This document shows positions 8,075 to 50,337 of a stretch of DNA of 50,671 nucleotides, in pieces (position 1 is the stretch's first letter; the number at the start of each line of letters is the position of its first letter). Both the position numbers and the translations under genes were made by a program. Origin of the DNA: a virus (lineage: Duplodnaviria > Caudoviricetes); the IMG/VR virus record IMGVR_UViG_3300003885_000005, positions 1-50,671 of that record; one strand, written 5' to 3'. The notes under the pieces were generated by a model that was given only the letters and a program-made list of their open reading frames with translations, was not told where the DNA came from and searched no databases.

Positions 8075-9118
8075 ATGATAGCTATAGTAGCTAATGAATC
8101 GACTGCAACACTAAGGAGAATTTACTTCTTTTGTGTAGATGCTACTGATGGTATAACGCCAGAACTTGGAGAGGCCGCAGGACAACCGCAGTTATCAGTT
8201 AGTGCTGGTGCATGGGCAAATTCCAGTAACACCCTTGTTGCTATTGGTAGTGGTCATTATTACCTAGAGCTTACGCAAACTGAAGTCAATATTGCAGTTC
8301 AGTCAGTAATCAGAACTAGGTACAAATCAGCTAATACGATTGAGACAGAAGGCTCGACGGCTCAGATCTTTAGTGCTACACCTACAGACTTTGCCTCTAC
8401 GGCATCTGGTGTTCTAGGTACACTAATAACTGATGTAAGGCGTGTGGTTAAAGATGTGAGTGGAGTTAACTCTGAGATTTTATGGGATGAGCTTGAGTGG
8501 ATTGAATACTTTGCTAGTGCAGAAAGAGAAATATGTGAAAGAGCTCATGTGTTAGAGGACTCAACCACAGCGGCTGTTGTTACTATAACTATGGTAGATG
8601 GGACAGCTTCATACTCATTACACCCAAAAATTTTGTATGTGGAGAAAGCTGTACCATCTTGGGGAACCGATAGCACACCGATACCGAAGAGGTCAGAAGA
8701 CTGGTTAGATGTTAATTATCTTGGATGGCGAGATCTAGATGACGGTAAGCCAGAATATATAGTTGAGAAACAGACACATAAGATAATCTGTGTTCCAGCG
8801 CCGAACTCTGACTATGCCGCTGAGACCCTATCACTGGTGGTAAAGAGACTTCCACTTGTTGACTTATCGTTGATTAATGTTACTCCAGAAATCGACTCTC
8901 GGTACTATGACGATATGAAACACTGGGCTCTCTACCGGGCGTTTTCTAAAAGAGATGCCGAGATATATGATGAGAATAAATCTACATTCTATTCTAAACA
9001 TTATTACAACTTGTTTGAGGCAAGAGTCGGACAGAGGCCAGATGCTAATACTCAGCGGATAATGAAACAAGAGCCGGCTACTGGTATACAGATAATACCT
9101 TATAGAAGGAGCACATAG
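8075..9118 (+). CDS. Head-to-tail adaptor-like protein with an extra N-terminal domain
   Basis: The C-terminal two-thirds has an adaptor pattern (W...E...YF..AEREICER; P.P; WALYRAFSKRDAE). Confidence 0.65.
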   Translation: MIAIVANESTATLRRIYFFCVDATDGITPELGEAAGQPQLSVSAGAWANSSNTLVAIGSGHYYLELTQTEVNIAVQSVIRTRYKSANTIETEGSTAQIFSATPTDFASTASGVLGTLITDVRRVVKDVSGVNSEILWDELEWIEYFASAEREICERAHVLEDSTTAAVVTITMVDGTASYSLHPKILYVEKAVPSWGTDSTPIPKRSEDWLDVNYLGWRDLDDGKPEYIVEKQTHKIICVPAPNSDYAAETLSLVVKRLPLVDLSLINVTPEIDSRYYDDMKHWALYRAFSKRDAEIYDENKSTFYSKHYYNLFEARVGQRPDANTQRIMKQEPATGIQIIPYRRST

Positions 9119-9143
9119 TATCGTTCATTGTGTGAACATAACT
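9117..9143. promoter_or_regulatory. 27-bp dyad, copy 1: AGTATC GTTCA TTGTG TGAAC ATAACT
   Basis: Matches the nine-copy genome-wide palindrome; intergenic. Confidence 0.85.
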
Positions 9144-9147
9144 AACC

Positions 9148-10101
9148 ATGAATAAAATGGAAGTAGTAACATATAATAAGTTCTTAGGCGTCTACAGTAG
9201 TGGTGACTCTCAAGATATACCAAAGCCCGAAGGGGCTATAGCTCTTGTAACCGCTGATAATATGGATATTAATAAGTACTTTAAACTTAAATCTAGACCT
9301 GGTAGAACATTGAAGCTATCTGGAGATTATAAGAACCTTTGGTCCGACGGCTCAGTTATCTTTGCTACTATAGATAATGACTTATATAAGCTGGTTTTAA
9401 ACCAAGACTTGACTATGTCAGCAACTCTAATCCAACAGAATGTAGGTCCAGGAATAATGAACTATGCTAGCATAGGTGAGTTAGCTTATATGACTAATGA
9501 TACTAATATCTATGCCTACCAAGACAGCGCTATTAGAGCACTTAGAACCACAACCAATCAGTTCAGAAAAACTATGCCGCCGGGATACTTACTTGAATTA
9601 CACCGGAGTAGGATGTTTATAGCTAAGACCATCCAAACCTTTGATAGTGATTCTGCCTACAAACGTACCCAAGAAATCTTGATGCAGTCTGAAGCTGGTA
9701 ACTATGAGAGATATGATACTCGGGATGATAAATCCTGGCAGTCTTTTCCAACTAGACTAACCATGATAAAGTCAGTCGGAGACGGACTCTTTGTTTCAGC
9801 CGACAAGACGTATTTCTTAAAGGGGTCATTCTTAGGCCCGAATGGAATGACGCTGACTAAAGTTGATAATTCTTCAGCGATTTTTGGTACAGCTAAAAAA
9901 ATTCGTGGAGCTATGATAGCCGGCGAGTATTACGATAATGCAGTACTCTGGGAAACCGAACTTGGTATATGTGTAGGTGGTTCTGGTGGACGCTTTAAGT
10001 ATCTTACTGAAGGAAGGAAAGATAAATCCACTGCTAGCATTGGTGCTAGTTATATTAAACGTGGCGAAATAAATCAATATGTAGTTAATAAAAAAGGTTA
10101 A
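9148..10101 (+). CDS. Putative tail/nozzle-associated structural protein
   Basis: Follows the adaptor; A.N.DI...LK.RPG N-terminal motif; beta-rich. Confidence 0.6.
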   Translation: MNKMEVVTYNKFLGVYSSGDSQDIPKPEGAIALVTADNMDINKYFKLKSRPGRTLKLSGDYKNLWSDGSVIFATIDNDLYKLVLNQDLTMSATLIQQNVGPGIMNYASIGELAYMTNDTNIYAYQDSAIRALRTTTNQFRKTMPPGYLLELHRSRMFIAKTIQTFDSDSAYKRTQEILMQSEAGNYERYDTRDDKSWQSFPTRLTMIKSVGDGLFVSADKTYFLKGSFLGPNGMTLTKVDNSSAIFGTAKKIRGAMIAGEYYDNAVLWETELGICVGGSGGRFKYLTEGRKDKSTASIGASYIKRGEINQYVVNKKG

Positions 10102-10111
10102 GGAGGGAATT

Positions 10112-10897
10112 ATGAGTATTGAATATGGTAGAGCTTTTAGAAACTTCACTCAAGGATATGGCTCTAAAAGACAGGCTATTGAAGGTGGAGTAATTGACAT
10201 TTATGATGGTTCTGGTGTGTTACCAGCATCTCCAGATGATGCAGCTACAGGGGTAAAACTAGTTAGATGCACTCTTGGTAGTGGAGCATGGACTCCAGAG
10301 GTTCTGTCTATGGGAACCATAACACTAACTGGTTCAGCTGGAACATGCACCAATATAACTGTAGACAGCATCTCAATTCTTGATGCAACTGTTACCTTTG
10401 ATACAGATTTAGCCACTACTGCCATTGCGCTAGCGCTTGCCATCAATAACACGCCTCACGTGCGAGAGCGCTATTTTGCTTATTCGTCAGGCGCGGTTGT
10501 CTATATAAGGGCCTTACATGGCACGGGCACCACGCCTAACGGTTTTGTACTTATCTCGACTACAGCTGGCGGCTTAACGGGCACTGACGTTAATCTTGGC
10601 ACTGGCGCCGCAGGCGTCGCGTCTGTTAATGGATTAAGTTACAATGCTCCTGTCAATGGTATCTTTGCTCGTGATGGTATAATGAGTGGAGTAGTACTGG
10701 CTACTGGATATGCAGCTTATTTTAGAATTACTGGCAGTGTTGCTGATGCAGGAGGTGCTGATGCAGCTCCATGGAACCAAATAAGAATCCAAGGAACCTG
10801 TGGAACAAGTGGAGCTGATTATAATATGGATACTACATATCTGATTCTTGGTGCTACTCATACAGTAGATACCTGGACTGAGACTCTGGCTGAGTAA
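10112..10897 (+). CDS. Virion structural protein
   Basis: IDIYDG..PASPDDAATG motif; G/T/A-rich. Confidence 0.65.
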   Translation: MSIEYGRAFRNFTQGYGSKRQAIEGGVIDIYDGSGVLPASPDDAATGVKLVRCTLGSGAWTPEVLSMGTITLTGSAGTCTNITVDSISILDATVTFDTDLATTAIALALAINNTPHVRERYFAYSSGAVVYIRALHGTGTTPNGFVLISTTAGGLTGTDVNLGTGAAGVASVNGLSYNAPVNGIFARDGIMSGVVLATGYAAYFRITGSVADAGGADAAPWNQIRIQGTCGTSGADYNMDTTYLILGATHTVDTWTETLAE

Positions 10898-10909
10898 GGA
10901 GATAAACTA

Positions 10910-16315: not shown

Positions 16316-19300
16316 ATGGCAAATGACAACTATGCTGATATAACGAACTTTATTGAATCTGAAACTAGCGTTCATGAAATGAACAAAAGTAATAAAGATA
16401 AGTTTAGTGATATAAATGAGTTTTTAGGAATAGAAGCTGAGCCAACGTCTACAGAGATTCTTATTGACCCAGAAAAGCGTGGTAAGAGTTATGGTGTATC
16501 TGGAGAGTGGGAAGATGAAAGTGGTGTACCACCAGAAATACTTACTGGTTTAAAAGGGGAGAACCGAAAAAAGAAAGCTAACTTATATAAACAGGCGACT
16601 CCTGAACAAAGAGCACTATATTTTCCGCAAACAGCTGCAACTGCTAGAGTTGTGGCTAAAGGAATTAATGCTAGACTATATGGAGCTCCTAAAGCTATTT
16701 TTGGTGATATACCTCCGTTTCAAGAATCAGAGAGCACTGCTGAATCTATAGGAACAGTTGGTGCAGAATTCTATGGTTTTTTAAAGGGCCCCTTTGCGCT
16801 AGCCAAAAGCTTATTAGGAAAAACTTGGGCTGCTAGAGAGGGTAGTATTGCAGCTAATTATGCTAGAATGATTGGAAGAGGTGGTCTTGAGCTTGGAACT
16901 GCCGGTGGAATAAGTGAAGTAATTCCCGCAGTTAGTGAAGAAGGATTAACAAGAGAAGCAGGTACTAGAGTTAATGATGCATTTAAACAAAGTGCACTAT
17001 TTGGTATGATATTTCCTGCTGCCGGAGTTATACCAACTAAACCTTTAAGAGTAGTTATTGGTGCTGGCTTGACTGATTTAGTTAGAGGTAGAGGTGAGTT
17101 TACATATGATGATACTATTAGAGGTTTACAGGATGGTACCATTGACCAACAGGAATTAGTTGATAGAGGCTTTGGGTATCTTATGGATGTATATTTTTTA
17201 ACTAGAACTCCTTCAGTAAAGAAACAAATAGAATCTCTTATACCATTTAAAAGAGTAGACAAGTTGGCATCTATGATAGCTAATGATAAGATGCAACAGG
17301 GTAAATACCAAGAAGCTGTTGATATAGTTAATGAGAGGTTTGAAAAGATTAAGAATGATCCAGAAATAAAAGAGAAGATGTCTGAGTTAGTTGGTAAAGA
17401 GTTAGAGGAGATACAGAAACAACTTAAAACTGATAAAGGAAGACAGGCTATTATAGATAAAAAGATGCCTAAAGATTTAGGTGATACACTTAAACTAAAT
17501 GCTCAAGCTAGACAAGCTGAGATAGATAGAATATCAGCCGTTGCTACAATACCAATAGAAGAAGCTCCAAAGATAGCTAAAGCAATAAAGCCACCTGAAA
17601 CAACTATGCAGAAGATTGATAAAATGATAGATGAGATAAAAACATTAGGAGAAGATATTGGTTACAAGCCAGTCCTTAAACGTGATAAATTACAAATACC
17701 AGTAGGTGAAAAGAAACCAGCTGATACTAAATTAATTGAACAGGATAAAAGAGTTCAAGAAGTTTTATCTGAAATAGAAAAGCTCGAAGGTTTAAGAACC
17801 ACAGCCGAGAAAGCTACTGGTATGAACCTCAAGTCTATATATGATAAAGCAATAAATGAAGCTATAGATACTTTACCTGAAGGTGAGAAGATCGAACTAC
17901 AATCAGCTATAAGTAACTTTAGAAAGAAAGTATATGTTACAGGTATTGAGAAGTATTATGCTGAGAAAGCAGCCGAGAAGAAAGCTACAGAGGTTGAGGT
18001 AAAGGAAAAACAAACGGCAAAGGAAACGACCCCTGTAAAGGGAAAAGAAAGCCCGGCGCCAGCCAAGCGTACGATGGAAGAGTCCGTCGCTGCTGGGGAA
18101 ATTCCGGCGCCCGAATACAAAGGCAAAGAACGGAGAGAAGTACCAGAAGCTAGACAGACAGTTATAGATGGATATGTAAGAAAGGAGCTTGGGGTTAAAG
18201 GTCTTGGTGGAAAAAAGTTAGCGCCGCTGACCAAATCTGAAAAAGAAGTTCTGGCGTTATATGAAGCTAAGCATCCTGATTATGTTAAAAAGGTTAGAGA
18301 AGATATAAAGGGGCGTGAAGAACCATCTAAAAAGGCTGCTGAGGTTGATAAGAAAAAAGAGATTGATCGGGTTGCTAAAGAGCATGATGTTAAGTATGAG
18401 GGAATACAGGAAGGTGCTGAGGGTGAAAAGTTCTATACCTTTACAGATAAAGAGACGGGTTCTACTTTTATGGTAAGTAATTTATCTAAGGTTGAGCGTA
18501 GTGTAACTGATATGAGGAAGAAGTTTAAAGAAGCAGAGAAGGAACCTAAAGAAGAAGTCAAAGTGGAACCTGATGCTGAGCTCTCTAAGACAGAAGTCAG
18601 TATAAAAGAACTTGGTGAGCTTACTCCTACGCAACTGGTTGAGAGAGCTAAGAAGGTGGGGCTCGAGCAAACGGTATGGAGTAAAGCTCTTTCAAATCGT
18701 GAGTATGTAGAGAGGCAGATAGTGGGGAAGGAAGGGAAGCCGTTTGAGGAAATGGTGAAGGAACCAGAGATTAAAATTGAGCCTGAGATTAAACCTGGTT
18801 TAAGAACTAAGTTCCAAAAGATCCTTGCCCAAGATAAGCTAACCCAAGAAGATATTAAGTGGCTTAAAGAAAACAAGGAAGCTCTGGATTTAACTCCAGA
18901 GGAAACCCAAGCCATTAAAATGCGTATGGCTGGTAAGCTTGTTAAAAGAATTATATCAGAGGAGAAGTTTCAAAAGAACTCAGAGTCTATTAAAAAGTAT
19001 CTTAAAGGTTTGAAGGTATTTACTGGGGTTCCAGACCCAAAGATTATAAAGGCTATGTCTGAAAATGCTATTTATCATATTGAAAGAAAAGCTACAAGCT
19101 TTTATCAATGGTCTCAAAAGATGATTAAAGAGTTTGGCAATAAAATTAGACCTATTCTACACCAAGCTTGGACTAATGCCCAGAACCATATTAATAGTGC
19201 TCGGGGGTATGAAGCTTATAAAGGGCGTATAGTTGCCGGAGATAAATTTAGTAAGGTTTATATAGCAGATAGTGTAACTGAATCTCTTCAAAATGAATCT

Positions 19301-22822: not shown

Positions 22823-23172
22823 GTCTTCCTCCTTGTGTGTTCTCCATCATCAATGGAGTTAAAGTGTTTTTTTGTATGGTTCCCTTCAACAAATTCAACT
22901 AAAGATATATTAGCTATATCGACTAAGTGTTCAAGATTACCGGTTTTAATATACTTTTCTACCCGGCGTTGGATAGAATCCATTCTATTATACTGTGGTT
23001 TATTAGGTGACCCAAGTTTGCCATAACGTAGTGAGCCCATAATTAGACGATTACGCATAAGCTGTTCGAACTCATCACACCATTCAGAGATACATAAAGC
23101 AGTATAGCTATCTGAATCTCGTTCATGAGCTGTATTAAGTAACCGTTGTCGTATATAATTAGTATTGTTCAT
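22819..23172 (-). CDS. Conserved phage protein, possibly an all-alpha NTP pyrophosphatase-like fold
   Basis: G..RYG and HLVDIAN...EF motifs; adjacent to thyX. The function is inferred. Confidence 0.45.
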   Translation of the reverse strand: MNNTNYIRQRLLNTAHERDSDSYTALCISEWCDEFEQLMRNRLIMGSLRYGKLGSPNKPQYNRMDSIQRRVEKYIKTGNLEHLVDIANISLVEFVEGNHTKKHFNSIDDGEHTRRKT

Positions 23173-23187
23173 TCAATGAACATAACT
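23161..23187. promoter_or_regulatory. 27-bp dyad, copy 3: AGTATT GTTCA TTCAA TGAAC ATAACT
   Basis: Matches the palindrome; spans a gene junction. Confidence 0.85.
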
Positions 23188-28119: not shown

Positions 28120-30432
28120 TTACTCCAGATCCCTCCAGTTCTTACCACTTTTAGTATCACTAGGAATATAAAAAGTTCTTCCATGATACGTCAACTCATA
28201 CTTAAAAAGCTCATGTACCTTATCCACCACAAACTTCCTCATGCTTATTGGGTGTTGTATAAGCAATGAATCATGCACTTGCAACTTAACACTAATATCT
28301 TTATGTTTCTTACAAACTTCATTATAGAACCTAATAATGCCTTTATTAATAACAGTTCCAACAACCTCTTGCGGCTCGTAAGCAACACACTCTTTAACTA
28401 AATCCGGACCCAGACGGCCAAAGAAAATCCTCTTTCGGCCAGTAGCGGTTGTGTGTGTTTTGGTACGTTTTAGCTCATCATCTAATGTCTTGAATAACCT
28501 CTCCAGGTTTGGGTTCAAGTCATAGAACTTCCTCTGTAGTTGCTTAGCCTCGGCGGCTGGTATTCTAAGTTGCTTTTGTATCCCTATGAAAGAGCCACGT
28601 TTCTCAAGTGTGTGTCGGAGCTTCTTAGCTCTAAAATATTTAGACAGGGTATCTTTACCCTCTGCCTCACGTTTGAGTTTATCTTCTTTAACCTCATCTG
28701 GATTCATATTAAACACAAGACAGGCTGTATAAGTATGTATGTTTTTATCCATCTCAAATATTTTAATAGAAGCTTCATCACCAGACCAATACGCAACTAT
28801 CATAGACTCAGCGCCTTTAAGATCAGCCTCGGTGAACTCCATACCCTCATCTGGAACAAGTATATCTCTAATCTTTTTAGGTATATTTTGAGCGTTTGTT
28901 CCAAAACCAAATGTACTTGTAGATGAACTTAAGCGATAAGTCTCAGCGCCGGTAGGATTAATATTGAACATAAATCTGCCATTAATAGGATCAGTTAAGT
29001 CAACAAGCCAAGTTGATATAAGCTTTCTTTCGCTCCTTATATTAATAACCTCAGCAATCTCTGGTGATTGTATGCTGAGTTTCTCAAGAGCGTCGGCATT
29101 AGAAGTAGGTTTGCCTCCTTTCATTATAGGTTTTAACTTAAGTGTCCCATAAGCTAACTTCATCATCTGTTGTGGGGAGTGAGGGTTTACTCCATTGAAG
29201 GTCTTAGCAAACTTTTCTTCTCTTTGTTTAAGTGACTTTTTATAGTATTCAATGTGCTCATTAAGTCTCTTAACATCTACTCTTATTCCACTCATTTGCA
29301 TAAATAGAAGTGGTTCAAGCAACTCCATCATATAATCATAAGTGTGCCGAACACCAAGCTCATTTATTTCTTTTTCAAGTTCTTCATACACCTCATATGT
29401 TACAGCTGAGTCACGAGCAGAGTAGGTCCAGTTCTGCTCATCAGTTGAGGTGCCGGCTAACCATGTTTTTAGATCGTCTTTATAATAAGGCTCATTAGTA
29501 TATATCGAAGCAAGAAAATCTAAACCCTTTGGAAGCTCTGAATAACATGAGTGCTGTGCAATCATAGTATCATACCACGGCTTCTTAACAAGTACACCCC
29601 AGTTACGCATTATCCACTTAATATCGTGACTTATATTTTGACCTATCTTTAAGTCATCTCTGTTAAAGACTTTTTCCATTGCCTTCCAAATTATTCTTAA
29701 GTTTCCCCATGAACCCCAATACGATTTAGTTGTTGGTATGCTTATAGACTCATCTTTAGAAAATGCAAATGATATGCAGTGTATCCAATTTGGTTTATTC
29801 TCAATATCATAAGCGAAGTTGCCTCTGTTATCACCAAGAAAGTGCAAGACGTCATCCATGGTGGGTTCAATAATCAAGTTCCGTTTAGGCAGAATAACTT
29901 CTGGAAATTCACTTTCTTTAAGTATCTTCTTTAAATCAAATCTTTGAACGGGATTAAGCTTCCAACTATTATTTATAGCAGCTGGGTGATAGGTGCCTAT
30001 AACTTTAACTACATGACCATTGGGTAGAGTGGTTGATAAAATACTTCCACGCCATTTACCTATTTGTGTCTTACCGGTGAGAGCCCATAAGGGATTCGCA
30101 CCTAATGGAACAATTATATTAGTATCTAATTCATCGAGCTCTTTTAGTAGCTCATCTTTGAGTTTAAGAAGCTGTGCTGTTGGTTGTTTACCTTTCCAGA
30201 ACATTTTATTAAACATTTTAGGTGGAACAGCGAGCTTAGATATGTTGGTAAGATAACATTGCTGACGTGAGATGCCAGTCATATGCAGGTTGCTATTAAG
30301 GATTCGGCCAGAAGTCCCAACAAATGGTTGGAGGTTGGCTACTTCTTCGACCCAAGGAGCCTCACCAATGAAGGCTATCTTACACTTTTTGGGTCCTACA
30401 GGTGGAACGTAGATGGTGCCGAGGGCCATCAT
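28120..30432 (-). CDS. Family A DNA polymerase with N-terminal family-4 uracil-DNA-glycosylase-like and 3'-5' exonuclease domains (SPO1-type architecture)
   Basis: UDG motifs GEAP, PFVG.SG and TYHPAA; ExoI YDIE; polymerase motifs RLSS, QNIP, ADLKGAE and QVHDS. Confidence 0.92.
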   Translation of the reverse strand: MMALGTIYVPPVGPKKCKIAFIGEAPWVEEVANLQPFVGTSGRILNSNLHMTGISRQQCYLTNISKLAVPPKMFNKMFWKGKQPTAQLLKLKDELLKELDELDTNIIVPLGANPLWALTGKTQIGKWRGSILSTTLPNGHVVKVIGTYHPAAINNSWKLNPVQRFDLKKILKESEFPEVILPKRNLIIEPTMDDVLHFLGDNRGNFAYDIENKPNWIHCISFAFSKDESISIPTTKSYWGSWGNLRIIWKAMEKVFNRDDLKIGQNISHDIKWIMRNWGVLVKKPWYDTMIAQHSCYSELPKGLDFLASIYTNEPYYKDDLKTWLAGTSTDEQNWTYSARDSAVTYEVYEELEKEINELGVRHTYDYMMELLEPLLFMQMSGIRVDVKRLNEHIEYYKKSLKQREEKFAKTFNGVNPHSPQQMMKLAYGTLKLKPIMKGGKPTSNADALEKLSIQSPEIAEVINIRSERKLISTWLVDLTDPINGRFMFNINPTGAETYRLSSSTSTFGFGTNAQNIPKKIRDILVPDEGMEFTEADLKGAESMIVAYWSGDEASIKIFEMDKNIHTYTACLVFNMNPDEVKEDKLKREAEGKDTLSKYFRAKKLRHTLEKRGSFIGIQKQLRIPAAEAKQLQRKFYDLNPNLERLFKTLDDELKRTKTHTTATGRKRIFFGRLGPDLVKECVAYEPQEVVGTVINKGIIRFYNEVCKKHKDISVKLQVHDSLLIQHPISMRKFVVDKVHELFKYELTYHGRTFYIPSDTKSGKNWRDLE

Positions 30433-31769
30433 CCATCTCCTATCTTATCCAAGAGCCCTGCATCCTTAGCACTCAGAAAGTCCGCAATCCTAAGCAACGC
30501 TCTGTCATAGTTAACTTGGTCAAGTTCAAATCCAAGTGCCTTGCATCCACTCTTGATACCAGCAATAATCGTGGTAGCACTCCCAGCAAATGGATCTAAG
30601 ATAGTCTGACCTGGTAAGCAGAACCGACTAACTAGCTCTTCCATAAGTGGGAGCGGCTTCTCCACCACATGAACTTTCTCCGAGATCGAGACCCCAGGGA
30701 AAGGTAGTATGTTACTTTGACCTCTTTTAACCAGTGAGTAGTCACCTCTTGTGCCATAGAGGAAGGCTTCATAAGATCGAGCCATGTTCTTGGACGGTAC
30801 ACTAGTTTGGCCCGGGCCGCCTGTACGATGCCAAATACCAGGGATGGGGTCAACGGAGAAACCTATCTGAGTAAACCTGTCAGCCAACCAACCAAAGTTG
30901 CTTAAGCTGTTTGGCTTATGTTTGTGGTCACAGAAGAAAACAAAACAGGCATCCTTTGCCATAACCCGATCAAGTTTATTAATCAACGTATCTATCATTG
31001 TAAAGTACTCTGCCTCATCATCATCATAAGTACTATTATCTTGAGCGGCTTGAGAGTCAGATGAAACCTTCTTAATTTTCTTTAGGTCTATACCATAAGG
31101 TGGGTCGGTTATCAAGGCACTGATGGAGCCAGCGGGTAGGCTATCTATTAGCTCCAAACACGAGCCATTGAAGAGGTAATTCTGTGCTTTGGAACCATAA
31201 TTAGTCTTCTTCTTCCTAATCGCTAGCTCAGCATGAGTTTCATCCAACTTGTACTTCTGTAAGACTTTCAAAGCCGACTCTCGAGTCTTACACCTAACAA
31301 ACATTTCAGGATCAACCTTAAGGGCCTCAGCCAAACCCAAATCAGTGCTAATAGCCCCAGTAGACAGGCCAGTTTTCTTTGCAGCCATACGTAGGGGCAT
31401 TTTCTTATACTTAGCCTTTAACATATCCATCAAGTCGGTAGTAGCTGACACTTTCTCACGCCAGTCGAAGTCTTTGCGCTCGAGGTTCTCAGTTATCTCC
31501 CATATGCGGTGGTCTACTTCATCCAGAGTCGTGATGATGGCCCGAACGTGTACTTCTGCTTTCTTACAGGCGGCCGTTCGCCTCTCTCCGGCAACCAACG
31601 TATATCTACCGGGTACGTCGGCTGGAATTACGATTATAGGGATTATGTTTTTTCCTAATGTTTTGATACTTTCTGATAATGACTCTATATCACCAAGGTC
31701 TTTTCGGTATCGGTCAGAGTCTATTATAATATCGTCTGGGTTGAGTAGAGCAATGTTGTCAGTGGTCAT
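30429..31769 (-). CDS. ParB-like domain + HTH + N6/N4 DNA methyltransferase fusion
   Basis: LVAGERR and ENLERKD (ParB/Srx); AAKKTGLSTGAIS (HTH); TDPPYG, EKP and LDPFAGS (beta-class MTase). Confidence 0.88.
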   Translation of the reverse strand: MTTDNIALLNPDDIIIDSDRYRKDLGDIESLSESIKTLGKNIIPIIVIPADVPGRYTLVAGERRTAACKKAEVHVRAIITTLDEVDHRIWEITENLERKDFDWREKVSATTDLMDMLKAKYKKMPLRMAAKKTGLSTGAISTDLGLAEALKVDPEMFVRCKTRESALKVLQKYKLDETHAELAIRKKKTNYGSKAQNYLFNGSCLELIDSLPAGSISALITDPPYGIDLKKIKKVSSDSQAAQDNSTYDDDEAEYFTMIDTLINKLDRVMAKDACFVFFCDHKHKPNSLSNFGWLADRFTQIGFSVDPIPGIWHRTGGPGQTSVPSKNMARSYEAFLYGTRGDYSLVKRGQSNILPFPGVSISEKVHVVEKPLPLMEELVSRFCLPGQTILDPFAGSATTIIAGIKSGCKALGFELDQVNYDRALLRIADFLSAKDAGLLDKIGDG

Positions 31770-32832: not shown

Positions 32833-32859
32833 ACTACCGTTCATTGAATGAACACAAGT
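32833..32859. promoter_or_regulatory. 27-bp dyad, copy 4: ACTACC GTTCA TTGAA TGAAC ACAAGT
   Basis: Intergenic, between the SSB gene and the tRNA-like RNA. Confidence 0.85.
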
Positions 32860-38916: not shown

Positions 38917-39402
38917 TTAGTTACGTTCATGAAATGAACAATACTTGTCAACCACCATCATAGGATAATAAGTATGCTCATCTTCATATCGTTCAATCTT
39001 TGGTATGCTTACTGGGATATCTTTCTTCTTGCTAAGGATAATATCTATTAACTGTGTTTGTGGCAGAGTCATAAGATACTGTCTACACTTTGAACAACTA
39101 TTCACTTTACAATTTCCTTTTCCTGATGTGTAGAATGGGCTGAGTGTTACCCATTCTTTCTTACAAATTGCTGTGGAGTGGTGCTCCTTGACATGACCAC
39201 AAAGTAAGCATGTAGTATTATACACAATAAAGTAATCACCTTTTTTTGCTTTGGGTCCTCTTGGTATGCCTTGCTTCTTTGATGCTTGTGGTAATAGATT
39301 TTTTAGCTCCTCGCCACTTAGATTGTACAACTTCTTGATTTGCTGGTCGTCAAAGCCCATTGATTTTAGGGCCTTGGCATCTTCAGGACTACAGTAGGAC
39401 AT
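38917..39402 (-). CDS. Cys-rich hypothetical protein
   Basis: CLLCG and CSKC; AGGAGG RBS. Confidence 0.6.
   Translation of the reverse strand: MSYCSPEDAKALKSMGFDDQQIKKLYNLSGEELKNLLPQASKKQGIPRGPKAKKGDYFIVYNTTCLLCGHVKEHHSTAICKKEWVTLSPFYTSGKGNCKVNSCSKCRQYLMTLPQTQLIDIILSKKKDIPVSIPKIERYEDEHTYYPMMVVDKYCSFHERN
38919..38945. promoter_or_regulatory. 27-bp dyad, copy 5: AGTTAC GTTCA TGAAA TGAAC AATACT
   Basis: Overlaps the last codons of 38917..39402. Confidence 0.85.
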
Positions 39403-40571: not shown

Positions 40572-40899
40572 ACACGTGATAATAATAATAATAATCTTCC
40601 TGGATATGGTCTCTATCCATACATGTGTGTTACATGTTCTACATGACATATATTGTCACATGTAGCCCTCCCCCCCCCTTTATTTAAAAAAAAAAAATAT
40701 AAGTATAAGGGGTAGGAGAAGGACATGTAACATGAACAAGTATCGTTCATTCAATGAACGGAAGTATACATGAGACACCAGTAGCGAGTACATGCCATAT
40801 AACTATACATGACATGACATGTAGTTATACATGTGTGTCATTGATGGATATGGAGCATATGTTCAAAGATTATTATTATTATTACCTGGGTTTTGACAA
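40565..40899. other. Origin-like locus: 56-bp imperfect inverted arms enclosing 12 ACATG repeats, poly-C/poly-A tracts and a dyad copy
   Basis: Arms at 40565..40620 and 40844..40899 share TTGTCAAA-N7-(TAA)5TCTT...ATATG...TATCCAT; non-coding. Confidence 0.6.
40739..40765. promoter_or_regulatory. 27-bp dyad, copy 6: AGTATC GTTCA TTCAA TGAAC GGAAGT
   Basis: Near the centre of the origin-like locus. Confidence 0.85.
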
Positions 40900-42191: not shown

Positions 42192-42797
42192 ATGGGACTA
42201 ATACCACAGACATTGAGTAGAAGCGTTGAGAGATATGGGTTAGGGTATATTAGGCCAAGGCATGAGGAGATAGCTCGAAGGCTGGTTTGTGGGCAGAACC
42301 AATCAGATATAGCCCGGCACATGGGTATTAATATAGGTCGGTTGAGTATCATAGTTAATTCACCGTTGTTTAAGGTGGTGCTGGCAAGGCTGTCGAAGCT
42401 CAGGGATGACTCCGCGACTGATATACAGGAGGAGATTAAAGCACTCGCGCCGATCGCGCTGGAGCAAGTCGCTTCCACAATTATGACCAGTACAAGTGAG
42501 AAGCTCAGGTTGTCAGCATCACAGGATCTGTTAGATAGAGCAGGGTTAGCTAAGAAGGGTAATGTTGGGGTGCAGATAAATATAGGAGCAGGGCATCCCG
42601 TTGATTTGGAGAAGTATAAAGGTGACGCTGTAACGGTAGAGGTTAAAGCTGAACCATCCAGTGATAATGGTGGCAACGGCGCCAATGGAGAGAGTGCTGT
42701 TCAGTCTGTGAACACAAGCGAAGAGGACACAGCAGAGGATATGAAGCTTTTGGAGGATATTATCGGCTTAGAAGAATCTGAAGAGGATAATAAATGA
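42192..42797 (+). CDS. terS: Putative terminase small subunit (HTH)
   Basis: HTH QSDIARHMGI; RLSASQDLLDRAG motif; upstream of terL; ATG after AGAGGG. Confidence 0.65.
   Translation: MGLIPQTLSRSVERYGLGYIRPRHEEIARRLVCGQNQSDIARHMGINIGRLSIIVNSPLFKVVLARLSKLRDDSATDIQEEIKALAPIALEQVASTIMTSTSEKLRLSASQDLLDRAGLAKKGNVGVQINIGAGHPVDLEKYKGDAVTVEVKAEPSSDNGGNGANGESAVQSVNTSEEDTAEDMKLLEDIIGLEESEEDNK
42693..42719. promoter_or_regulatory. 27-bp dyad, copy 7: AGTGCT GTTCA GTCTG TGAAC ACAAGC
   Basis: Inside the low-complexity C-terminal tail of terS; one flank mismatch. Confidence 0.75.
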
Positions 42798-46958: not shown

Positions 46959-47266
46959 GCGTTGTAGAAATGATTGATGTAGATATTGAGAAGGAAATAA
47001 AGGAGTTTCCTTTAGTACCATATACACAGAGGGTCTATATAATAGAAGATGAGGTATTTAAATCTCATGGTCTATATATTCCAGATTCTTCTCGTAAAGA
47101 AGGCGAAATGCAAACTAATATAGGTACTGTGGTAGCTGTGGCTGATGATATTGGCTTTGTAAAGCCCGGCGATAGGGTTCTGTATGCCCGTTATTCTGGT
47201 TCATGGGTTCTCGATCAAAAATACCGAGTCATGAACGAAGAGGATATTCTTGGGAGATATAAATGA
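46955..47266 (+). CDS. groES: Co-chaperonin GroES (Cpn10)-like
   Basis: P...RV, GLYIPD, GTVVAV, VKPGDRVLY..YSG and MNEEDILG motifs. Confidence 0.88.
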   Translation: MSVVEMIDVDIEKEIKEFPLVPYTQRVYIIEDEVFKSHGLYIPDSSRKEGEMQTNIGTVVAVADDIGFVKPGDRVLYARYSGSWVLDQKYRVMNEEDILGRYK

Positions 47267-47292
47267 GTAGCGTTCATTATATGAACAATACT
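47266..47292. promoter_or_regulatory. 27-bp dyad, copy 8: AGTAGC GTTCA TTATA TGAAC AATACT
   Basis: Begins at the groES stop codon. Confidence 0.85.
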
Positions 47293-47405
47293 AACGCGCC
47301 GCGCTTGGCGCTTACGCCGGTCGTTTGCACTCACGCTGGTCGGGCGCTGTCGTTGTCTTTCATTAAACCGGCCGTGGCAGTTGCCGTTGCCGTTTTTGTA
47401 GTTTT
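47293..47405 (+). other. CpG-rich intergenic hairpin element with a T-rich tail (ssi/sso-like)
   Basis: Stem GGCGC..CCGGTCG / TGGTCGG GCGCT (47307..47348) with G-T pairs, followed by TTGCCGTTGCCGTTTTTG. Confidence 0.4.
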
Positions 47406-47443
47406 AAATAACACCTTTAAGGTGCGAAATCATAGGAGGAACT

Positions 47444-48316: not shown

Positions 48317-48739
48317 ATGGAAAATAAACCACAATTAAATATACTACAGGAAACCGGTGCTCCAAAACCACAAGCCACTCAGCCTTGGAAACCTGCTCAG
48401 GTATTAAAAGTTGCAGAGAGACCAGGTTTTAGGCGTAAATGGGTAAGAGAAGACTTAGTTGACAGATTTCAAGCTGAAGGTTGGAAGTTTGTTGATAATA
48501 AGAATAAATCTGTAAACCCTCCAAAAACAATAGTTGATGGAGCTCCACTATCTACGGTAGTGCAAAAGAGAGAACTGGTTCTCATGGAGATTACTGAGGA
48601 ACTAGCGAAGTCAAGGGAAGCATACTTTAAATCACTATCTGATGGAGCATTAGAGTCAAGTGTTAATGAGTTTAAGAAGACTGCTAATGAGGGTAGTGGT
48701 AAGAGCTATGGCGAAGTAACAATCAGAGGAGGTAAATAA
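48317..48739 (+). CDS. Conserved head-region protein
   Basis: W.P..L....PGF..KWVR, EGW.FV and LVLM.I pattern, typically found between scaffold and capsid genes. Confidence 0.65.
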   Translation: MENKPQLNILQETGAPKPQATQPWKPAQVLKVAERPGFRRKWVREDLVDRFQAEGWKFVDNKNKSVNPPKTIVDGAPLSTVVQKRELVLMEITEELAKSREAYFKSLSDGALESSVNEFKKTANEGSGKSYGEVTIRGGK

Positions 48740-49254
48740 TGGCAAATAAGGATTTTGCAAGAGGTTTATGGCCTGCTGGTCATTTGACTGGTGGCATGAT
48801 TAGAACTCATCCTTATATCTTAACCACAGGTCAGGTAATTAGACGAGGTGAAGTTGTAATAGCTGTAGCCGGTGGTACTGTTGAGGATGGAGCTGCTGGG
48901 AGTGGGGCTATTGTAGTTGGTGTATCTGCTGATTTCGTGGATGATTCTGGTAGTGCAGGTAGTAAAGTTGTTAATGTTTTTGACGACCCCAATATCATCT
49001 TTGGAGTGCAGGGTGCGACTGGAGTAACACCTGCTGCTACAGATGTTTTTGCGACATCTGATTTAGTAACGTGTAGTAAGACTGGTGTAACTGATGCTTC
49101 TCAACTATCTGACACAGAGCTAGACCTTGATGGCAATGCTCAAGTCAAGATTATTGGTAAGGTTGATGAGCCAGATAATGCCTGGGGTGTTAATGTTAAT
49201 CTTCTCGTTATCTTTAACGAGCATCTTTATAAAGCCGCGGTAGCTGGCGTTTAA
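48739..49254 (+). CDS. Capsid decoration/cement-like protein
   Basis: MANKD..RGL.P and V.DDPN.IF motifs; immediately before the MCP gene. Confidence 0.65.
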   Translation: MANKDFARGLWPAGHLTGGMIRTHPYILTTGQVIRRGEVVIAVAGGTVEDGAAGSGAIVVGVSADFVDDSGSAGSKVVNVFDDPNIIFGVQGATGVTPAATDVFATSDLVTCSKTGVTDASQLSDTELDLDGNAQVKIIGKVDEPDNAWGVNVNLLVIFNEHLYKAAVAGV

Positions 49255-49269
49255 GAGGAGGTAACATAA

Positions 49270-50163
49270 ATGCCACTTTATTCAAGTAACATGCCGGAGC
49301 TTCTGGAGCCAGGAATAAGAATCGTCTATGGTGATTCTTACAATGACTACCCAGAAGAATATACAGAAGCATTTGAGGTAGATACCTCTACAAAAGCTAC
49401 TGAGAAGGACTTCAGTGTGAGTGGATTTGGACTTGCTCAGCAGAAGGGTGAAGGTCAAGATGTGTACTTTGATGAGATGTATAAGGGGTTTTCAACTACC
49501 TACACTCACCTTGAATATGCTCTTGGGTTTGCTGTAACAAGGATAATGTACGAAGATGATCTGTACCGTCAGATTAAATCTCGTCCACAGGCCTTGGCAA
49601 GAAGTGTCAGACACACTGTTGAGATCTTGTCTGCGAATATCTTAAACAATGCTTTCACATCCGGACTCGGTGGTGATGGAGTTGTTCTTTGCTCTGCTAG
49701 CCATCCGATCAAAACTGGGACACTCAGCAATCTAATGAGTCCTACAGCTACTTTCTCTGTTACATCTTTTGAGCAGGCTTTAATTGATATTCAAGGATGG
49801 ACAGATGATAGAGGGTTGAAAATCAGGGTGCTTCCAAAGAAACTGATTGTAAGTCCTAGTGATGCATTTCAGGCTCAGATTGTCCTTAAATCTGCGAAGA
49901 TGCCAGGTACTGCTGACAATGACGTTAACCCAGCGATGAACTATCTTCCTAATGGTTATACTGTCATGCACTTTCTCACCGACACAGATGCTTGGTTCCT
50001 TAAAACAGACCAGCCCAATGGTTTGATGTTCTTCTGGAGACGTAGACCAGAATTCACCAGAGATAATGACTTTAAGTCAGATAACGCTCTGTTTAAAACT
50101 ACCCTTAGATGTTCACAGGGTTGGACGGACTGGCGAGGACTGTACGGATCTGCTGGGGCCTGA
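49270..50163 (+). CDS. Major capsid protein (Mu gpT-like family)
   Basis: LEPG, GFG.A..KGEG, YALGF.VT...EDDLY, GGDGV.L...HP and LTDTDAWFL motifs. Confidence 0.88.
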   Translation: MPLYSSNMPELLEPGIRIVYGDSYNDYPEEYTEAFEVDTSTKATEKDFSVSGFGLAQQKGEGQDVYFDEMYKGFSTTYTHLEYALGFAVTRIMYEDDLYRQIKSRPQALARSVRHTVEILSANILNNAFTSGLGGDGVVLCSASHPIKTGTLSNLMSPTATFSVTSFEQALIDIQGWTDDRGLKIRVLPKKLIVSPSDAFQAQIVLKSAKMPGTADNDVNPAMNYLPNGYTVMHFLTDTDAWFLKTDQPNGLMFFWRRRPEFTRDNDFKSDNALFKTTLRCSQGWTDWRGLYGSAGA

Positions 50164-50176
50164 TGAAAGTAACAAA

Positions 50177-50301
50177 GAGTCCAAGTAATGTGTTAAGTAT
50201 GAGGACTCCTTCCAGGATGAAGGAGGTGGCTGCTAATTTTAAAATTAGACGGCCACTTCCCATTCGGAGGAAGAATGTGAAGTCTGGTGCTTTTCCGCCA
50301 G
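50177..50301 (+). other. Multi-hairpin structured intergenic region after the MCP gene
   Basis: Stems GAGTCC/GGACTC; GGAGGTGGCTG-CTAATTTTAAAATTAG-A-CGGCCACTTCC; CATTC/GAATG; CTGGTG/CGCCAG. Confidence 0.5.
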
Positions 50302-50310
50302 CGTTTAATA

Positions 50311-50337
50311 AGTAATGTTCACGAAATGAACACAACT
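50311..50337. promoter_or_regulatory. 27-bp dyad, copy 9: AGTAAT GTTCA CGAAA TGAAC ACAACT
   Basis: Intergenic, downstream of the MCP gene. Confidence 0.85.

What the first reader, a model, noticed from the sequence alone, without database searches (positions are those of the whole stretch)
9117..50337. Nine dispersed copies of a 27-bp palindrome around the whole genome
Seen in the sequence: A(G/C)T-N3-GTTCA-N5-TGAAC-N3-A(G/C)T starts at 9117, 16364, 23161, 32833, 38919, 40739, 42693, 47266 and 50311. The 10-bp core is invariant, and the outer triplets match in 17 of 18 half-sites. My rough estimate at about 37% GC is 0.06 chance cores per genome. Copies occur in both transcription arms, 2-10 kb apart, at gene junctions or in tolerant coding tails (terS C-terminus, N-terminus of the giant protein). 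None overlaps the sigma70 promoters I could identify. Inference: this distribution fits a genome-wide loading or marking site for a dimeric protein better than a classical operator.
Basis: partly seen in the sequence, partly recalled or inferred. Interest (0 to 1): 0.88.

Follow-up and report, generated by a model that had tools for sequence, protein, structure and literature searches.

The report
Genome-tiling docking sites for ParB-methyltransferase
Nine evenly spread copies of a 27-bp palindrome in this phage genome look like centromere-type (parS-like) landing sites for the phage's own ParB-DNA-methyltransferase fusion protein, which would give a first testable job to a widespread but unexplained class of phage enzymes.

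Summary
All 9 copies of A(G/C)T-N3-GTTCA-N5-TGAAC-N3-A(G/C)T are at the stated coordinates, against 0.02 expected. The window is a complete 50.6-kb phage genome.

A motif-only scan of viral contigs found the same motif at 5-10 copies in five distantly related phage records. Relatives carry lineage-specific versions with the same geometry (GTCCCA, GGTTAA, GTTTCA, GTTTAA, ATTACA).

The copies do not show the covariation of an RNA or DNA hairpin. They have no orientation, sit at gene junctions, and are spaced more evenly than chance, with gaps of at most about 10.7 kb.

Only 4-6 protein families are shared between this phage and the other carriers. Just one of them has a sequence-specific DNA-binding module. 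It is a fusion of the ParB CTPase domain, a ParB/Noc-type helix-turn-helix and a beta-class DNA methyltransferase (30429-31769, minus strand). Some lineages use the canonical parS half-site TGTTTCA.

My best reading (about 0.5) is that these are parS-like nucleation sites that load the ParB-methyltransferase onto the phage chromosome. Binding, CTP switching and in-cis methylation are inferred and not shown. Global HTH-motif covariation was not significant, and some ParB-MTase phages lack multi-copy sites.

The parts
9117..9143 (.). palindrome copy 1 (AGTATC GTTCA TTGTG TGAAC ATAACT); fills the gap between the stop of ORF 8075-9118 and the ATG at 9148
16364..16390 (.). copy 2; 48 nt into the 1886-aa ORF (16316-21976), in frame. 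A copy also lies within 90 nt of the giant ORF start in G001, G003 and G005
23161..23187 (.). copy 3; spans the stop of ORF 23186-23506(-) and the start of ORF 22819-23172(-)
32833..32859 (.). copy 4; 4 nt after the stop of ORF 32864-33208(-), about 1 kb upstream of the ParB-MTase gene
38919..38945 (.). copy 5; covers the last codons of ORF 38917-39402(-), 18 nt before ORF 38637-38900(-)
40739..40765 (.). copy 6; in the divergent region between the leftward and rightward arms. It is about 170 bp from the perfect sigma70-like promoter at 40571-40543(-)
42693..42719 (.). copy 7; inside the C-terminal part of the terS ORF (42150-42797), in frame. It is the only copy with a deviant outer triplet (AGC)
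47266..47292 (.). copy 8; begins at the last base of the stop of the Cpn10-like ORF 46955-47266
50311..50337 (.). copy 9; overlaps the stop of ORF 50109-50315, 57 nt before the ATG at 50395
30429..31769 (-). ParB-HTH-methyltransferase fusion gene (446 aa), the proposed reader of the palindrome
   Evidence: PHROG and Pfam hits; alignments A1 and A4; PDB profile hits
31482..31700 (-). ParB N-terminal (CTPase-fold) domain, residues 24-96. G61 and R64 (GxxR box) are invariant in 51 of 51 aligned homologues. The invariant E91, N95 and R98 (ENxxR box) start in this stretch and run just past its low end
31299..31397 (-). ParB/Noc-type helix-turn-helix, residues about 125-157 (…TGLSTGAISTDLGLAEALKVDPEM). 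T137 aligns with the ParB R173 / Noc Q158 specificity position
30516..31118 (-). beta-class N6/N4 DNA methyltransferase domain (PF01555), residues 218-418. The DPPY motif (D222 invariant) and FxGxG motif (G396 invariant) are present. The predicted homodimer interface is at residues 282-354 and 382

Best explanation
The nine palindromes are parS-like nucleation sites on double-stranded phage DNA for the phage's own ParB-HTH-DNA-methyltransferase fusion (gene 30429-31769, minus strand).

Proposed mechanism:
1. The protein is a dimer held together by its methyltransferase domains. This is predicted, not shown.
2. Its two ParB/Noc-type helix-turn-helix domains read the inverted GTTCA/TGAAC core. 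The outer AGT/ACT triplets give extra contacts. This is inferred.
3. The NTP-binding boxes of the ParB fold (GxxR, ENxxR) are invariant. The most likely sequel is the one known for ParB, Noc and KorB: nucleotide-dependent closure into a clamp that leaves the site and slides. This is inferred from family knowledge.
4. Sites are spaced so that no point of the genome is more than about 5 kb from one. The methyltransferase cargo would therefore be concentrated on, and reach all of, the phage chromosome, methylating it in cis. This is inferred and is the least certain step.

What is shown: the sites are real; they are conserved and diversify in relatives; they are symmetric DNA sites; they are evenly spread; they co-occur with this protein; and the protein has a ParB-type DNA-binding domain.
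For: (1) Reality and conservation. There are 9 copies against 0.02 expected. A motif-only scan of viral contigs found five other records with 10, 7, 10, 5 and 5 copies of the same core. Five single-match records checked had only 1 copy each.

(2) Reverse test. Records recovered by the motif alone encode the ParB_N+HTH profile in 5 of 5 informative cases (G001, G002, G003, G005, L038). G001 and G003 are in the profile, so 3 of these are independent. None of 58 single-match control loci (562 kb) has a hit. Eight short fragments (G004, L030, L032, L033, L035, L053, L066, L079) have no hit in the piece held and are uninformative.

(3) Shared genes. G000 shares only DUF3987 helicase/primase, DNA polymerase, ParB-MTase and PD-(D/E)XK nuclease with the other carriers at BLAST E<1e-3. 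Structural genes are shared with G001 only. Among 50 G000 ORFs scanned (PHROG or Pfam), terS was the only other DNA-binding candidate. No HTH, RHH or ParA family was hit.

(4) Domain homology. A profile of the N-terminal 209 positions matches Noc (7ng0) at E=1.2e-24 over positions 9-191. This covers the CTPase fold plus the HTH. It also matches ParB/Spo0J and KorB structures. MD01's protein gives a weak PF17762 HTH_ParB hit.

(5) parS-likeness. Relatives' sites are TGTTTCA-N3-TGAAACA (L111, L113), TGTCCA-N4-TGGACA (L128) and similar. The canonical parS is TGTTTCAC|GTGAAACA (recalled).

(6) Family survey. 21 of 42 loci with a full-length ParB-HTH-MTase have a dispersed palindrome (n>=3, lnP<=-13 in about 20 kb). 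So do 3 of 38 loci with the MTase domain only, and those three are borderline GC-rich words. In loci chosen by DNA polymerase, 11 of 72 ParB+ and 0 of 8 ParB- loci are positive. Four of 5 window-negative genomes became positive when read whole. G018 has 10 copies.

(7) Specificity residue. A GTCC core goes with [K/R][S/T] at the positions after the conserved Ser in 7 of 7 rows, against 0 of 20 other rows. On a tree built without the HTH, 4 of 4 independent pairs go the same way. Four further GTC-core loci all carry K/R. The first of these positions aligns with ParB R173 / Noc Q158, an experimentally defined specificity residue (PMC7383237 passages).

(8) Symmetric dsDNA site. There is no within-site covariation and no orientation bias of the spacer in G001.

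(9) Even spacing. P = 0.029, 0.006, 0.019, 0.10 and 0.028 in G000, G001, G002, G003 and MD01. The largest gaps are 7.8-10.7 kb.

(10) Dimer. The homodimer model scored 0.67 with the best of 3 controls at 0.00. The runs agree in at least 85% of contacts and the partner pLDDT is at least 74. The mark was reached by 20 of 30 proteins solved as pairs of one chain and 1 of 23 solved as single chains. These counts hold only roughly, because my own alignment was used. The interface lies in the MTase domain. Dimeric beta-class MTases have been solved, so the pass may reflect likeness.
Against: No binding, CTP or methylation data exist.

Global covariation was not significant. The partial Mantel correlation of motif distance with HTH distance, given the rest of the protein, was r=0.11, p=0.15. 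Motif distance tracked the rest of the protein slightly better (r=0.17, p=0.03).

The [K/R][S/T] rule was found post hoc. The sign test on 4 pairs gives p=0.125. K/R also occurs with non-GTC cores (L117, L120, L122, L123).

Many ParB-MTase phages show no multi-copy palindrome. These include 61 of 72 DNAP-chosen loci in windows of 6-22 kb, the complete genome G015, and MW202489 and Mel-JY34.

The site spacing differs by +1 bp from canonical parS. The outer triplets have no counterpart in parS. The canonical ParB C-terminal dimerisation domain is absent, and no ParA was seen among the 50 of 84 ORFs scanned. The recognition helices of phages with the same GTTCA core differ considerably.
Confidence: 0.5

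Rival explanations
1. The ParB-MTase does bind the sites but stays there or acts locally. It could be a KorB-like global transcription regulator or roadblock at operon junctions, an organiser or condensing centre of replicating phage DNA, or an enzyme that methylates only at or next to the site. In this reading it is not a clamp that spreads methylation.
For: The binding evidence is the same as for the best explanation. 30 of 55 site centres in seven phages lie in non-coding DNA against 2.8 expected, mostly at ORF junctions. Junctions are where a regulator or roadblock would act. KorB of RK2 is a ParB-family protein that silences promoters from distal operator sites (PMC11790492 passages). The conserved outer triplets might be a local methylation target, but this was not tested.
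Against: Copies are not at a fixed distance from promoters or start codons. Three G000 copies lie inside ORFs. The intergenic preference may only mean that 16 fixed bases are hard to fit into coding sequence. Even spacing is not needed for local regulation. No KorA-like partner was identified.
Confidence: 0.2
2. The palindrome is the operator of a different dimeric DNA-binding protein. That protein could be a small, fast-evolving phage regulator not detected here, the small terminase, or a conserved host factor. The link with ParB-MTase would then be only shared ancestry of a phage group.
For: Most small ORFs have no detectable family, and 34 of 84 G000 ORFs were not scanned. A copy lies in or next to the terS gene in G000, G002, G003 and G004. 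ParB-MTase is nearly universal in this phage group, in 72 of 80 DNAP-chosen loci. Co-occurrence therefore has limited discriminating power inside the group. Whole-helix covariation was not significant.
Against: G000 shares the identical 16-position motif with G002, G003 and G005 but has no detectable small protein in common with them. A reader of an identical site should be conserved. The half-sites resemble parS, and the only shared HTH is of ParB type. The motif changes between fairly close phages (G001 GTTCA, L103 GTCCC) together with the ParB helix. Isolated half-sites are at chance frequency. A terS with about ten pac sites would be unusual (established knowledge).
Confidence: 0.2
3. The copies act as nucleic-acid hairpins: RNA terminators, processing or stabiliser stems, or extruded DNA cruciforms or hairpin promoters.
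For: The sequence is an inverted repeat placed mostly just after stop codons. In G004 the N3 positions pair in 14 of 15 cells (shuffle p=0.04), and some copies in G003 and G004 have complementary flanks.
Against: In 6 of 7 phages the N3 and flank positions are no more complementary within a site than after shuffling right halves between sites. In G001 and G003 they are less so: 14 observed against 19.1 shuffled, and 10 against 15.7. The G000 stems are weak, at -4.3 to -6.8 kcal/mol, close to the 5th percentile (-5.5) of genomic 27-mers. They have no T-run; only the 40739 copy met the loose terminator scan. There was no Rfam match. All three variant copies in MD01 create C.A mismatches rather than G.U on the transcribed strand. 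Stem sequence is conserved across phages where pairing alone would suffice.
Confidence: 0.05
4. The copies are small mobile or recombinogenic palindromic elements (REP/MITE-like, or recombinase core sites) that spread within the genome.
For: They are multi-copy, intergenic palindromes. In Cluster O mycobacteriophages, recombination between similar repeats explains some indels (PMC4351075, section 8).
Against: No transposase, RAYT or tyrosine recombinase was found in the ORFs scanned. Flanks are unrelated between copies. Copies sit at equivalent junctions in phages whose proteins are only 25-35% identical: after the helicase/primase gene, at the giant-gene start, and at terS. Spacing is over-dispersed, which selection explains better than random insertion.
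Confidence: 0.05

Closest known systems
Chromosomal and plasmid ParB-parS (including Noc-NBS)
   Same: Both have an N-terminal ParB CTPase fold with GxxR and ENxxR boxes, followed by a ParB/Noc-type HTH. Both use palindromic sites of about 16 bp. Some lineages here use the parS half-site TGTTTCA. There are many dispersed copies, as for Noc sites (recalled).
   Different: The C-terminal dimerisation domain is replaced by a DNA methyltransferase. No ParA was found in the ORFs scanned. The core is 15-17 bp with one extra central base in most lineages, plus conserved outer triplets that make a 27-bp site. The sites tile a lytic-type 50-kb phage genome instead of clustering near an origin.
KorB and its OB operators on plasmid RK2
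   Same: KorB is a ParB-family CTP clamp that loads at palindromic sites scattered over a replicon of about 60 kb and acts at a distance by sliding (PMC11790492 passages). The figure of 12 OB sites is recalled. KorB structures are hit by the N-terminal profile (8qa8, E=1.5e-6).
   Different: KorB is a repressor and partition protein with KorA, TrbA and IncC partners and has no enzymatic cargo. Here the cargo is a methyltransferase and no partner is known.
17-bp repeat of Cluster O mycobacteriophages (Corndog), 5'-TGTTCGGNNNCCGAACA
   Same: It is a symmetric repeat with 7-bp arms and a 3-bp spacer, with 34 copies in Corndog. Copies are mostly at gene junctions or 5' ends and show no orientation. 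The authors propose a dimeric protein and a non-promoter role, and the function is unknown (PMC4351075, section 8 and passages). The arms resemble TGTTCAA-N3-TTGAACA (G003) and TGTCCGG-N3-CCGGACA (L105). Corndog gp90 has ParB_N plus an HTH-like stretch (Pfam E=2.7e-6; hhalign probability 96%, E=4e-9 over 127 columns).
   Different: gp90 has no methyltransferase domain. Corndog has about three times as many copies and no outer triplets. It was not recovered by tblastn with the G000 N-terminal part (0 Cluster O records among 32 hits). A link between gp90 and the repeat is my suggestion and is not in the paper.
Stoperators of Cluster A mycobacteriophages (L5 gp71)
   Same: These are many copies of one short protein-binding site in intergenic gaps all over a phage genome (recalled, and contrasted in the PMC4351075 discussion).
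   Different: Stoperators are asymmetric 13-mers oriented with transcription and bound by the immunity repressor. The sites here are symmetric and orientation-free.
ParB-CTPase-methyltransferase fusions surveyed in phages (PNAS 2025, PMC12704722)
   Same: The domain fusion is the same (PF02195 + PF01555). It is reported as frequent in phages and prophages, with the role left open ('perhaps in anti-defense') (passages).
   Different: In the passages I read, that survey describes no DNA sites for these fusions. The supplements were not seen.

Membership tests
ParB/parS-type nucleation system | ParB N-terminal CTPase fold with conserved GxxR (box II) and ENxxR (box III) | tested here: met
   PF02195 E=9.7e-8. 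G61, R64, E91, N95 and R98 are invariant in 51 of 51 aligned homologues.
ParB/parS-type nucleation system | ParB-type helix-turn-helix DNA-binding domain directly after the N-terminal domain | tested here: met
   The profile matches Noc 7ng0 over positions 9-191, including '…LGKGQSTIANKLRLL…', at E=1.2e-24. The Pfam HTH_ParB model itself is only weakly hit, and only in MD01 (E=0.04).
ParB/parS-type nucleation system | Palindromic site of parS type (16 bp, TGTTNCAC half-site) | tested here: inconclusive
   The G000 core is (T)GTTCA-N5-TGAAC(A), one base longer than parS. Relatives have TGTTTCA-N3-TGAAACA and 16-bp TGTCCA-N4-TGGACA. The parS sequence is recalled.
ParB/parS-type nucleation system | The protein binds the site specifically | not testable with these tools
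   Only co-occurrence and a residue-base pattern are available.
ParB/parS-type nucleation system | C-terminal ParB dimerisation domain | tested here: not met
   The C-terminal half is PF01555. A dimer through that domain is predicted: score 0.67 against best control 0.00.
ParB/parS-type nucleation system | Cognate ParA ATPase | tested here: not met
   No ParA-type family was found among the 50 of 84 G000 ORFs scanned. The only ATPase found is Sak4-like.
ParB/parS-type nucleation system | CTP binding, clamp closure and sliding | not testable with these tools
   Motif conservation only. The 2025 survey found that some fusions bind ATP or GTP instead (PMC12704722 passages).
KorB-type global regulon | Sites positioned to control promoters, with partner repressors | tested here: not met
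   In 36000-50671 the perfect promoters do not coincide with copies. No partner was identified.
Stoperator (phage L5 type) | Asymmetric site oriented with transcription | tested here: not met
   The sites are symmetric. The G001 spacer orientation is mixed on both arms.
Intrinsic terminator / structured RNA | Stable stem with compensatory changes, followed by a U-tract | tested here: not met
Cluster O mycobacteriophage 17-bp repeat | 7-bp inverted arms TGTTCGG with a 3-bp spacer, tens of copies, in a phage with a ParB-like protein | tested here: inconclusive
   The geometry and the TGTTC start are the same in G001, G003 and G005. Corndog gp90 shares ParB_N+HTH. The sequences differ and common descent is not shown.

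The most novel reading that the evidence does not exclude
A DNA methyltransferase is delivered as the cargo of a nucleotide-gated ParB sliding clamp. It loads only at parS-like sites that tile the phage chromosome every 10 kb or less. The phage would thereby mark, and so protect or identify, its own DNA in cis and leave host DNA unmarked. Site sequence and the recognition helix would co-diversify between phage lineages to keep each phage's marking private.
Probability: 0.3. Interest if true: 0.9.

Novelty: new variant of a known kind. Interest (0 to 1): 0.78.

Why it matters
ParB-CTPase-methyltransferase fusions are among the commonest ParB-fold fusions in phages, yet their role is open (PMC12704722 passages). 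This phage group supplies the missing piece: a candidate DNA site. The site is present at 5-10 evenly spaced copies per genome and varies between lineages.

That makes the question directly testable with one protein and one 27-bp oligonucleotide. Does it bind? Does it need CTP? Does methylation spread from the site?

If the clamp-loaded methylase idea holds, it would be a new way of targeting an epigenetic enzyme to one replicon. It would also be a new phage strategy against restriction and a compact tool for site-seeded DNA marking. It may further explain the long-unexplained 17-bp repeats of Cluster O mycobacteriophages.

My searches found no paper that links these fusions to dispersed palindromes. 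Supplements and subscription journals were not seen.

Tried and rejected
- **Close relatives.** Megablast of 25 kb against cultured or deposited phages found no match. Only distant protein relatives exist.
- **RNA hairpin, terminator or known RNA family.** Rejected.
- **Restriction or methylation 5-mer target.** Isolated GTTCA/TGAAC half-sites are at chance frequency: 101 observed against 102.7 expected in G000. G001 has 143 against 116.5.
- **Spacer asymmetry as an orientation signal.** None was seen in G001.
- **Whole-helix covariation by partial Mantel test.** Not significant. It is reported under evidence against.
- **Loose clustering of imperfect palindromes.** It was too noisy in GC-rich loci, so I used exact 5-bp arms instead.
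- **Palindromes guessed from 20-kb windows.** ATCCT-N5 in G011 and CTCAT-N5 in G013 gave only 2 copies each in the whole genomes. De novo scans of those genomes then found other cores.
- **Family X next to several sites.** It turned out to be DUF669, a likely single-strand-binding partner of Sak4 and not a duplex reader.
- **Corndog via tblastn.** Not recovered with the G000 N-terminal part. It was reached by accession instead.
- **Repeats in unrelated records.** Coding repeats in L011 and a separate palindrome, ACTTATCTAGTAAGT, in L050, L058 and L084 are unrelated to this motif.
- **Calls that gave nothing.** The scan of viral contigs with the MD01-type pattern did not complete because the machine was busy, and I did not repeat it. 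One paper reading failed on a too-short term, so the N15 comparison rests on recall and is not used as evidence.

Full report
**1.

The core GTTCA-N5-TGAAC occurs nine times at the stated places. Dinucleotide-preserving shuffles give a mean of 0.02, and 0 of 100 reach nine. With the outer A(G/C)T triplets, eight copies match exactly and one (42693) has a single mismatch.

The window is a complete virus record. Its first 91 bases recur at the end, so the unit length is 50,580 bp.

The gene layout is as follows:
- A rightward structural arm, about 1-22 kb, includes an 1886-aa ORF.
- A leftward replication arm, 22-40.5 kb, carries ThyX-like, DUF3987 helicase/primase, family-A DNA polymerase, ParB-methyltransferase, Sak4-like ATPase, ligase and PD-(D/E)XK nuclease genes.
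- A second rightward arm, 40.7-50.6 kb, carries terS, terL, portal and major capsid genes.

Most copies sit at ORF junctions, often touching a stop codon. One lies in the terS C-terminal part, and one is 48 nt into the giant ORF.

**2. The motif is conserved well beyond this genome**

A scan of viral contigs with the 27-bp pattern alone returned 80 loci. Five records hold many copies of the core: 10, 7, 10, 5 and 5. Five single-match records of similar size hold one copy each.

The multi-copy records are only distantly related to the window. Shared proteins are 21-43% identical, and detectable sharing is limited to helicase/primase, polymerase, ParB-MTase and nuclease. Structural genes are shared with one record only.

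The 16 specified bases are therefore better conserved than any protein. Within each phage the spacer and the N3 positions have their own preferences.

The nearest deposited relative by polymerase is Desulfofustis phage LS06-2018-MD01. It has nine copies of a variant with the same geometry, TGC-TAT-GTCCCA-N3-TGGGAC-ATA-GCA.

**3. A double-stranded DNA site, not a hairpin**

I shuffled right halves between sites of the same phage. Complementarity at the variable N3 and flank positions stayed the same or increased in six of seven phages. Only G004, with five sites, shows an excess (p=0.04).

In G001 and G003 the two halves of a site are less alike than chance. This suggests avoidance of long perfect palindromes.

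Further points against a hairpin:
- The three degenerate MD01 copies would give C.A mismatches, not G.U, in the transcript.
- The G000 stems fold at only -4.3 to -6.8 kcal/mol.
- They lack T-runs and match no Rfam family.
- The G001 spacer (AAAAT or AAATT) does not follow the direction of transcription.

Thirty of 55 site centres in seven phages fall in the roughly 5% of DNA that is non-coding, against 2.8 expected. Isolated half-sites are at chance frequency.

**4. Spacing**

I treated each genome as a circle. The sum of squared gaps is smaller than for random placement in all five genomes tested: P = 0.029, 0.006, 0.019, 0.10 and 0.028. The largest gaps are 7.8-10.7 kb.

Three of these records are classed as linear and are 93-100% complete, so this is approximate.

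**5. Which protein reads the site?**

The window shares the identical motif with G002, G003 and G005. The only detectable proteins it shares with them are the helicase/primase, the polymerase and the ParB-methyltransferase; the nuclease joins only on clustering through intermediate relatives. Of these, only the ParB-methyltransferase has a sequence-specific duplex-binding module.

Its alignment shows three parts:
- A ParB N-terminal fold with invariant GxxR and ENxxR boxes.
- A helix-turn-helix (…TGLSTGAISTDLGLAEALKVDPEM).
- After a linker, a beta-class methyltransferase with DPPY and FxGxG motifs.

A profile of the first 209 positions matches Noc structures over both the CTPase fold and the HTH (E=1.2e-24). 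It also matches ParB/Spo0J and KorB.

Among 50 of 84 G000 ORFs scanned, no other HTH or RHH family and no ParA appeared. terS was the only other DNA-binding candidate.

**6. Tests of the link**

*(a) Reverse test.* Records found by the motif alone carry the ParB_N+HTH profile in 5 of 5 informative cases. Three of these are independent of the profile. None of 58 chance-match control loci carries it. Eight short fragments are uninformative.

*(b) Forward survey.* Among 80 loci found with the ParB-MTase, 21 of 42 with the full-length fusion have a dispersed palindrome in about 20 kb. Only 3 of 38 with the methyltransferase domain alone do, and those are borderline GC-rich words. Kuura lacks the fusion and has no such palindrome.

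The palindromes share the geometry but not the sequence:
- GGTTAA-N3
- GTCCCA-N3
- GTCCGG-N3
- GTTTCA-N3, which is the canonical parS half-site
- GTTTAA
- TGTCCA-N4
- GATTCA-N4
- CTCAA-N3
- ATTACA-N4 with GC-rich outer arms

*(c) An independent sample chosen by polymerase.* 72 of 80 loci encode the fusion, but only 11 of those 72 are positive in windows of 6-22 kb. None of the 8 without the fusion is positive. Window-negatives often turn positive when the whole genome is read: 4 of 5 did so (G011, G012, G013, G014, but not G015). G018 has ten copies. The complete genomes MW202489 and Mel-JY34 encode the fusion but have no palindrome with four or more copies. Multi-copy tiling is therefore common in this group but not universal.

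*(d) Specificity residues.* The two residues after the conserved Ser of the HTH are [K/R][S/T] in 7 of 7 phages with a GTCC core and in 0 of 20 others. On a tree built without the HTH columns the motif classes are scattered (10 changes), and 4 of 4 independent pairs agree. With only four pairs the two-sided sign test cannot go below p=0.125. Four further loci with GTC cores also carry K/R. The first of these positions aligns with Noc Q158 / ParB R173, which was shown experimentally to set parS-versus-NBS specificity (PMC7383237, passages).

Against this, the rule was found post hoc, and K/R also occurs with four non-GTC cores. A partial Mantel test of whole-helix distance against motif distance was not significant (r=0.11, p=0.15).

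*(e) Dimer.* A two-copy model passed: score 0.67, best of 3 controls 0.00. The runs agree in at least 85% of contacts and pLDDT is at least 74. The mark was reached by 20 of 30 proteins solved as pairs of one chain and 1 of 23 solved as single chains, roughly, because my own alignment was used. The symmetric interface lies in the methyltransferase domain, at residues 282-354 and 382. Dimeric relatives have been solved, so this may show likeness only.

**7. Mechanism**

The parts suggest a ParB-like protein in which the methyltransferase has replaced the C-terminal dimerisation domain.

By analogy with ParB, Noc and KorB, the dimer would nucleate at the palindrome, close on NTP binding and slide away. 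For KorB, CTP-dependent clamping and sliding from distal sites is described in PMC11790492 (passages). Evenly spaced sites would let the enzyme reach the whole phage chromosome while staying off host DNA.

Only the site properties and the protein's domain make-up are shown. Binding, the nucleotide switch, sliding and in-cis methylation are inferred, in order of decreasing confidence.

A local role, either KorB-like regulation at operon junctions or methylation at the site itself, is the main alternative for the same protein.

**8. Comparison with what is known**

The system works like a ParB/parS nucleation system. It meets the family's protein features (CTPase boxes and HTH). It lacks the ParB C-terminal domain and a ParA, and its site is one base longer and carries outer triplets.

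It resembles KorB/OB in having many sites on a replicon of about 50-60 kb.

It resembles the unexplained 17-bp repeat of Cluster O mycobacteriophages. That repeat, TGTTCGGNNNCCGAACA, has 34 copies in Corndog, and its authors suggested a dimeric protein and a non-promoter role (PMC4351075, section 8). Corndog's gp90 has a ParB N-domain and an HTH-like segment but no methyltransferase.

ParB-methyltransferase fusions have been catalogued as frequent in phages, with their function left open (PMC12704722, passages). A ParB-like activator of phage thymine dioxygenases is another recent non-segregation role (PMC13229309, abstract).

Three full-text searches found no paper connecting these fusions with dispersed palindromes. 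Supplements were closed, and subscription journals are not in the library.

**9. Verdict**

I rate the link to the ParB-methyltransferase as likely, about 0.7 when the loading and local-action variants are counted together. I rate the clamp-loaded methylation model at about 0.3.

It is a new variant of a known kind of system, and it makes an open question experimentally tractable.

Noticed in passing
window 1-91 and 50581-50671: The first 91 bases are repeated exactly at the end of the window. This is either a terminal repeat or an assembly overlap of a circular or permuted genome.
   Followed up: partly
motif positions 16-19 in many copies (e.g. window 40754, 23172; G002 4415-4418): The right half-site NTGAAC supplies the first in-frame start codon of the downstream ORF in 8 of 46 sites. 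Its TGA is the stop of the upstream ORF in 3 sites. When a copy lies inside an ORF it is read in the frame S-x-V-(H/Q)-x-(M/L/V)-N-x-(T/S) in 12 of 16 cases. One frame on each strand is closed by TGA. This may be a by-product of packing a fixed 27-mer between genes.
   Followed up: partly
window 16364; G001 24597; G003 117; G005 12327: A copy sits at or just inside the start of the giant virion-protein ORF in four of five phages. Another sits in or beside terS (G000, G002, G003, G004). Another lies next to the helicase/primase gene: directly after it in G001, G002, G003 and MD01, two genes downstream in G000, and on the start side in G005. Site positions are thus partly syntenic although the proteins are only 25-35% identical.
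   Followed up: partly
window 16316-21976 (+): The 1886-aa ORF has PHROG hits to a DNA methyltransferase family (residues 983-1135), an endolysin family and DarB-like antirestriction. It has no Pfam hit at E<=0.01. It may be an ejected multifunctional protein.
   Followed up: no
G001, G003: The two N3 triplets of one site are less complementary than expected from the phage's own column composition: 14 observed against 19.1 shuffled in G001, and 10 against 15.7 in G003. This looks like avoidance of long perfect palindromes.
   Followed up: partly
window 40571-40543 (-) and 39617-39588 (-): There are two perfect 12-of-12 sigma70-type promoters with an extended -10 TG. They face the leftward early arm, which suggests a host with standard sigma70 promoters.
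   Followed up: no
window 46955-47266 (+) and 40226-40528 (-): A GroES/Cpn10-like gene lies in the head-gene arm, between the portal and capsid genes (PF00166, E=1.6e-8). A DUF1508 protein is the first gene of the leftward arm.
   Followed up: no
L050, L058, L084 (three related viral contigs): A different 15-bp perfect palindrome, ACTTATCTAGTAAGT, occurs 4-6 times per 14-15 kb locus, twice in tandem 27 bp apart. It is unrelated to the present motif. These contigs entered the set through one chance match.
   Followed up: no
L098 (MW202489.1) 475, 18883, 38794: This 62% GC phage encodes a ParB-MTase but has only three copies of GGGTTTAC-N6-GTAAACC(C). These have extended GC stems and look more like terminators than like the tiling sites.
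   Followed up: no
L100 (Caulobacter phage Kuura): Kuura has a uracil-DNA-glycosylase-like gene where its relatives have the ParB-MTase, and it has no dispersed palindrome. A non-palindromic word, CGCGGCCAAC, occurs 8 times.
   Followed up: no
G001 10878-11939 and 12610-14133: The DNA polymerase of G001 is split into two ORFs with about 670 bp between them. This could be an intron, an intein or a homing element.
   Followed up: no
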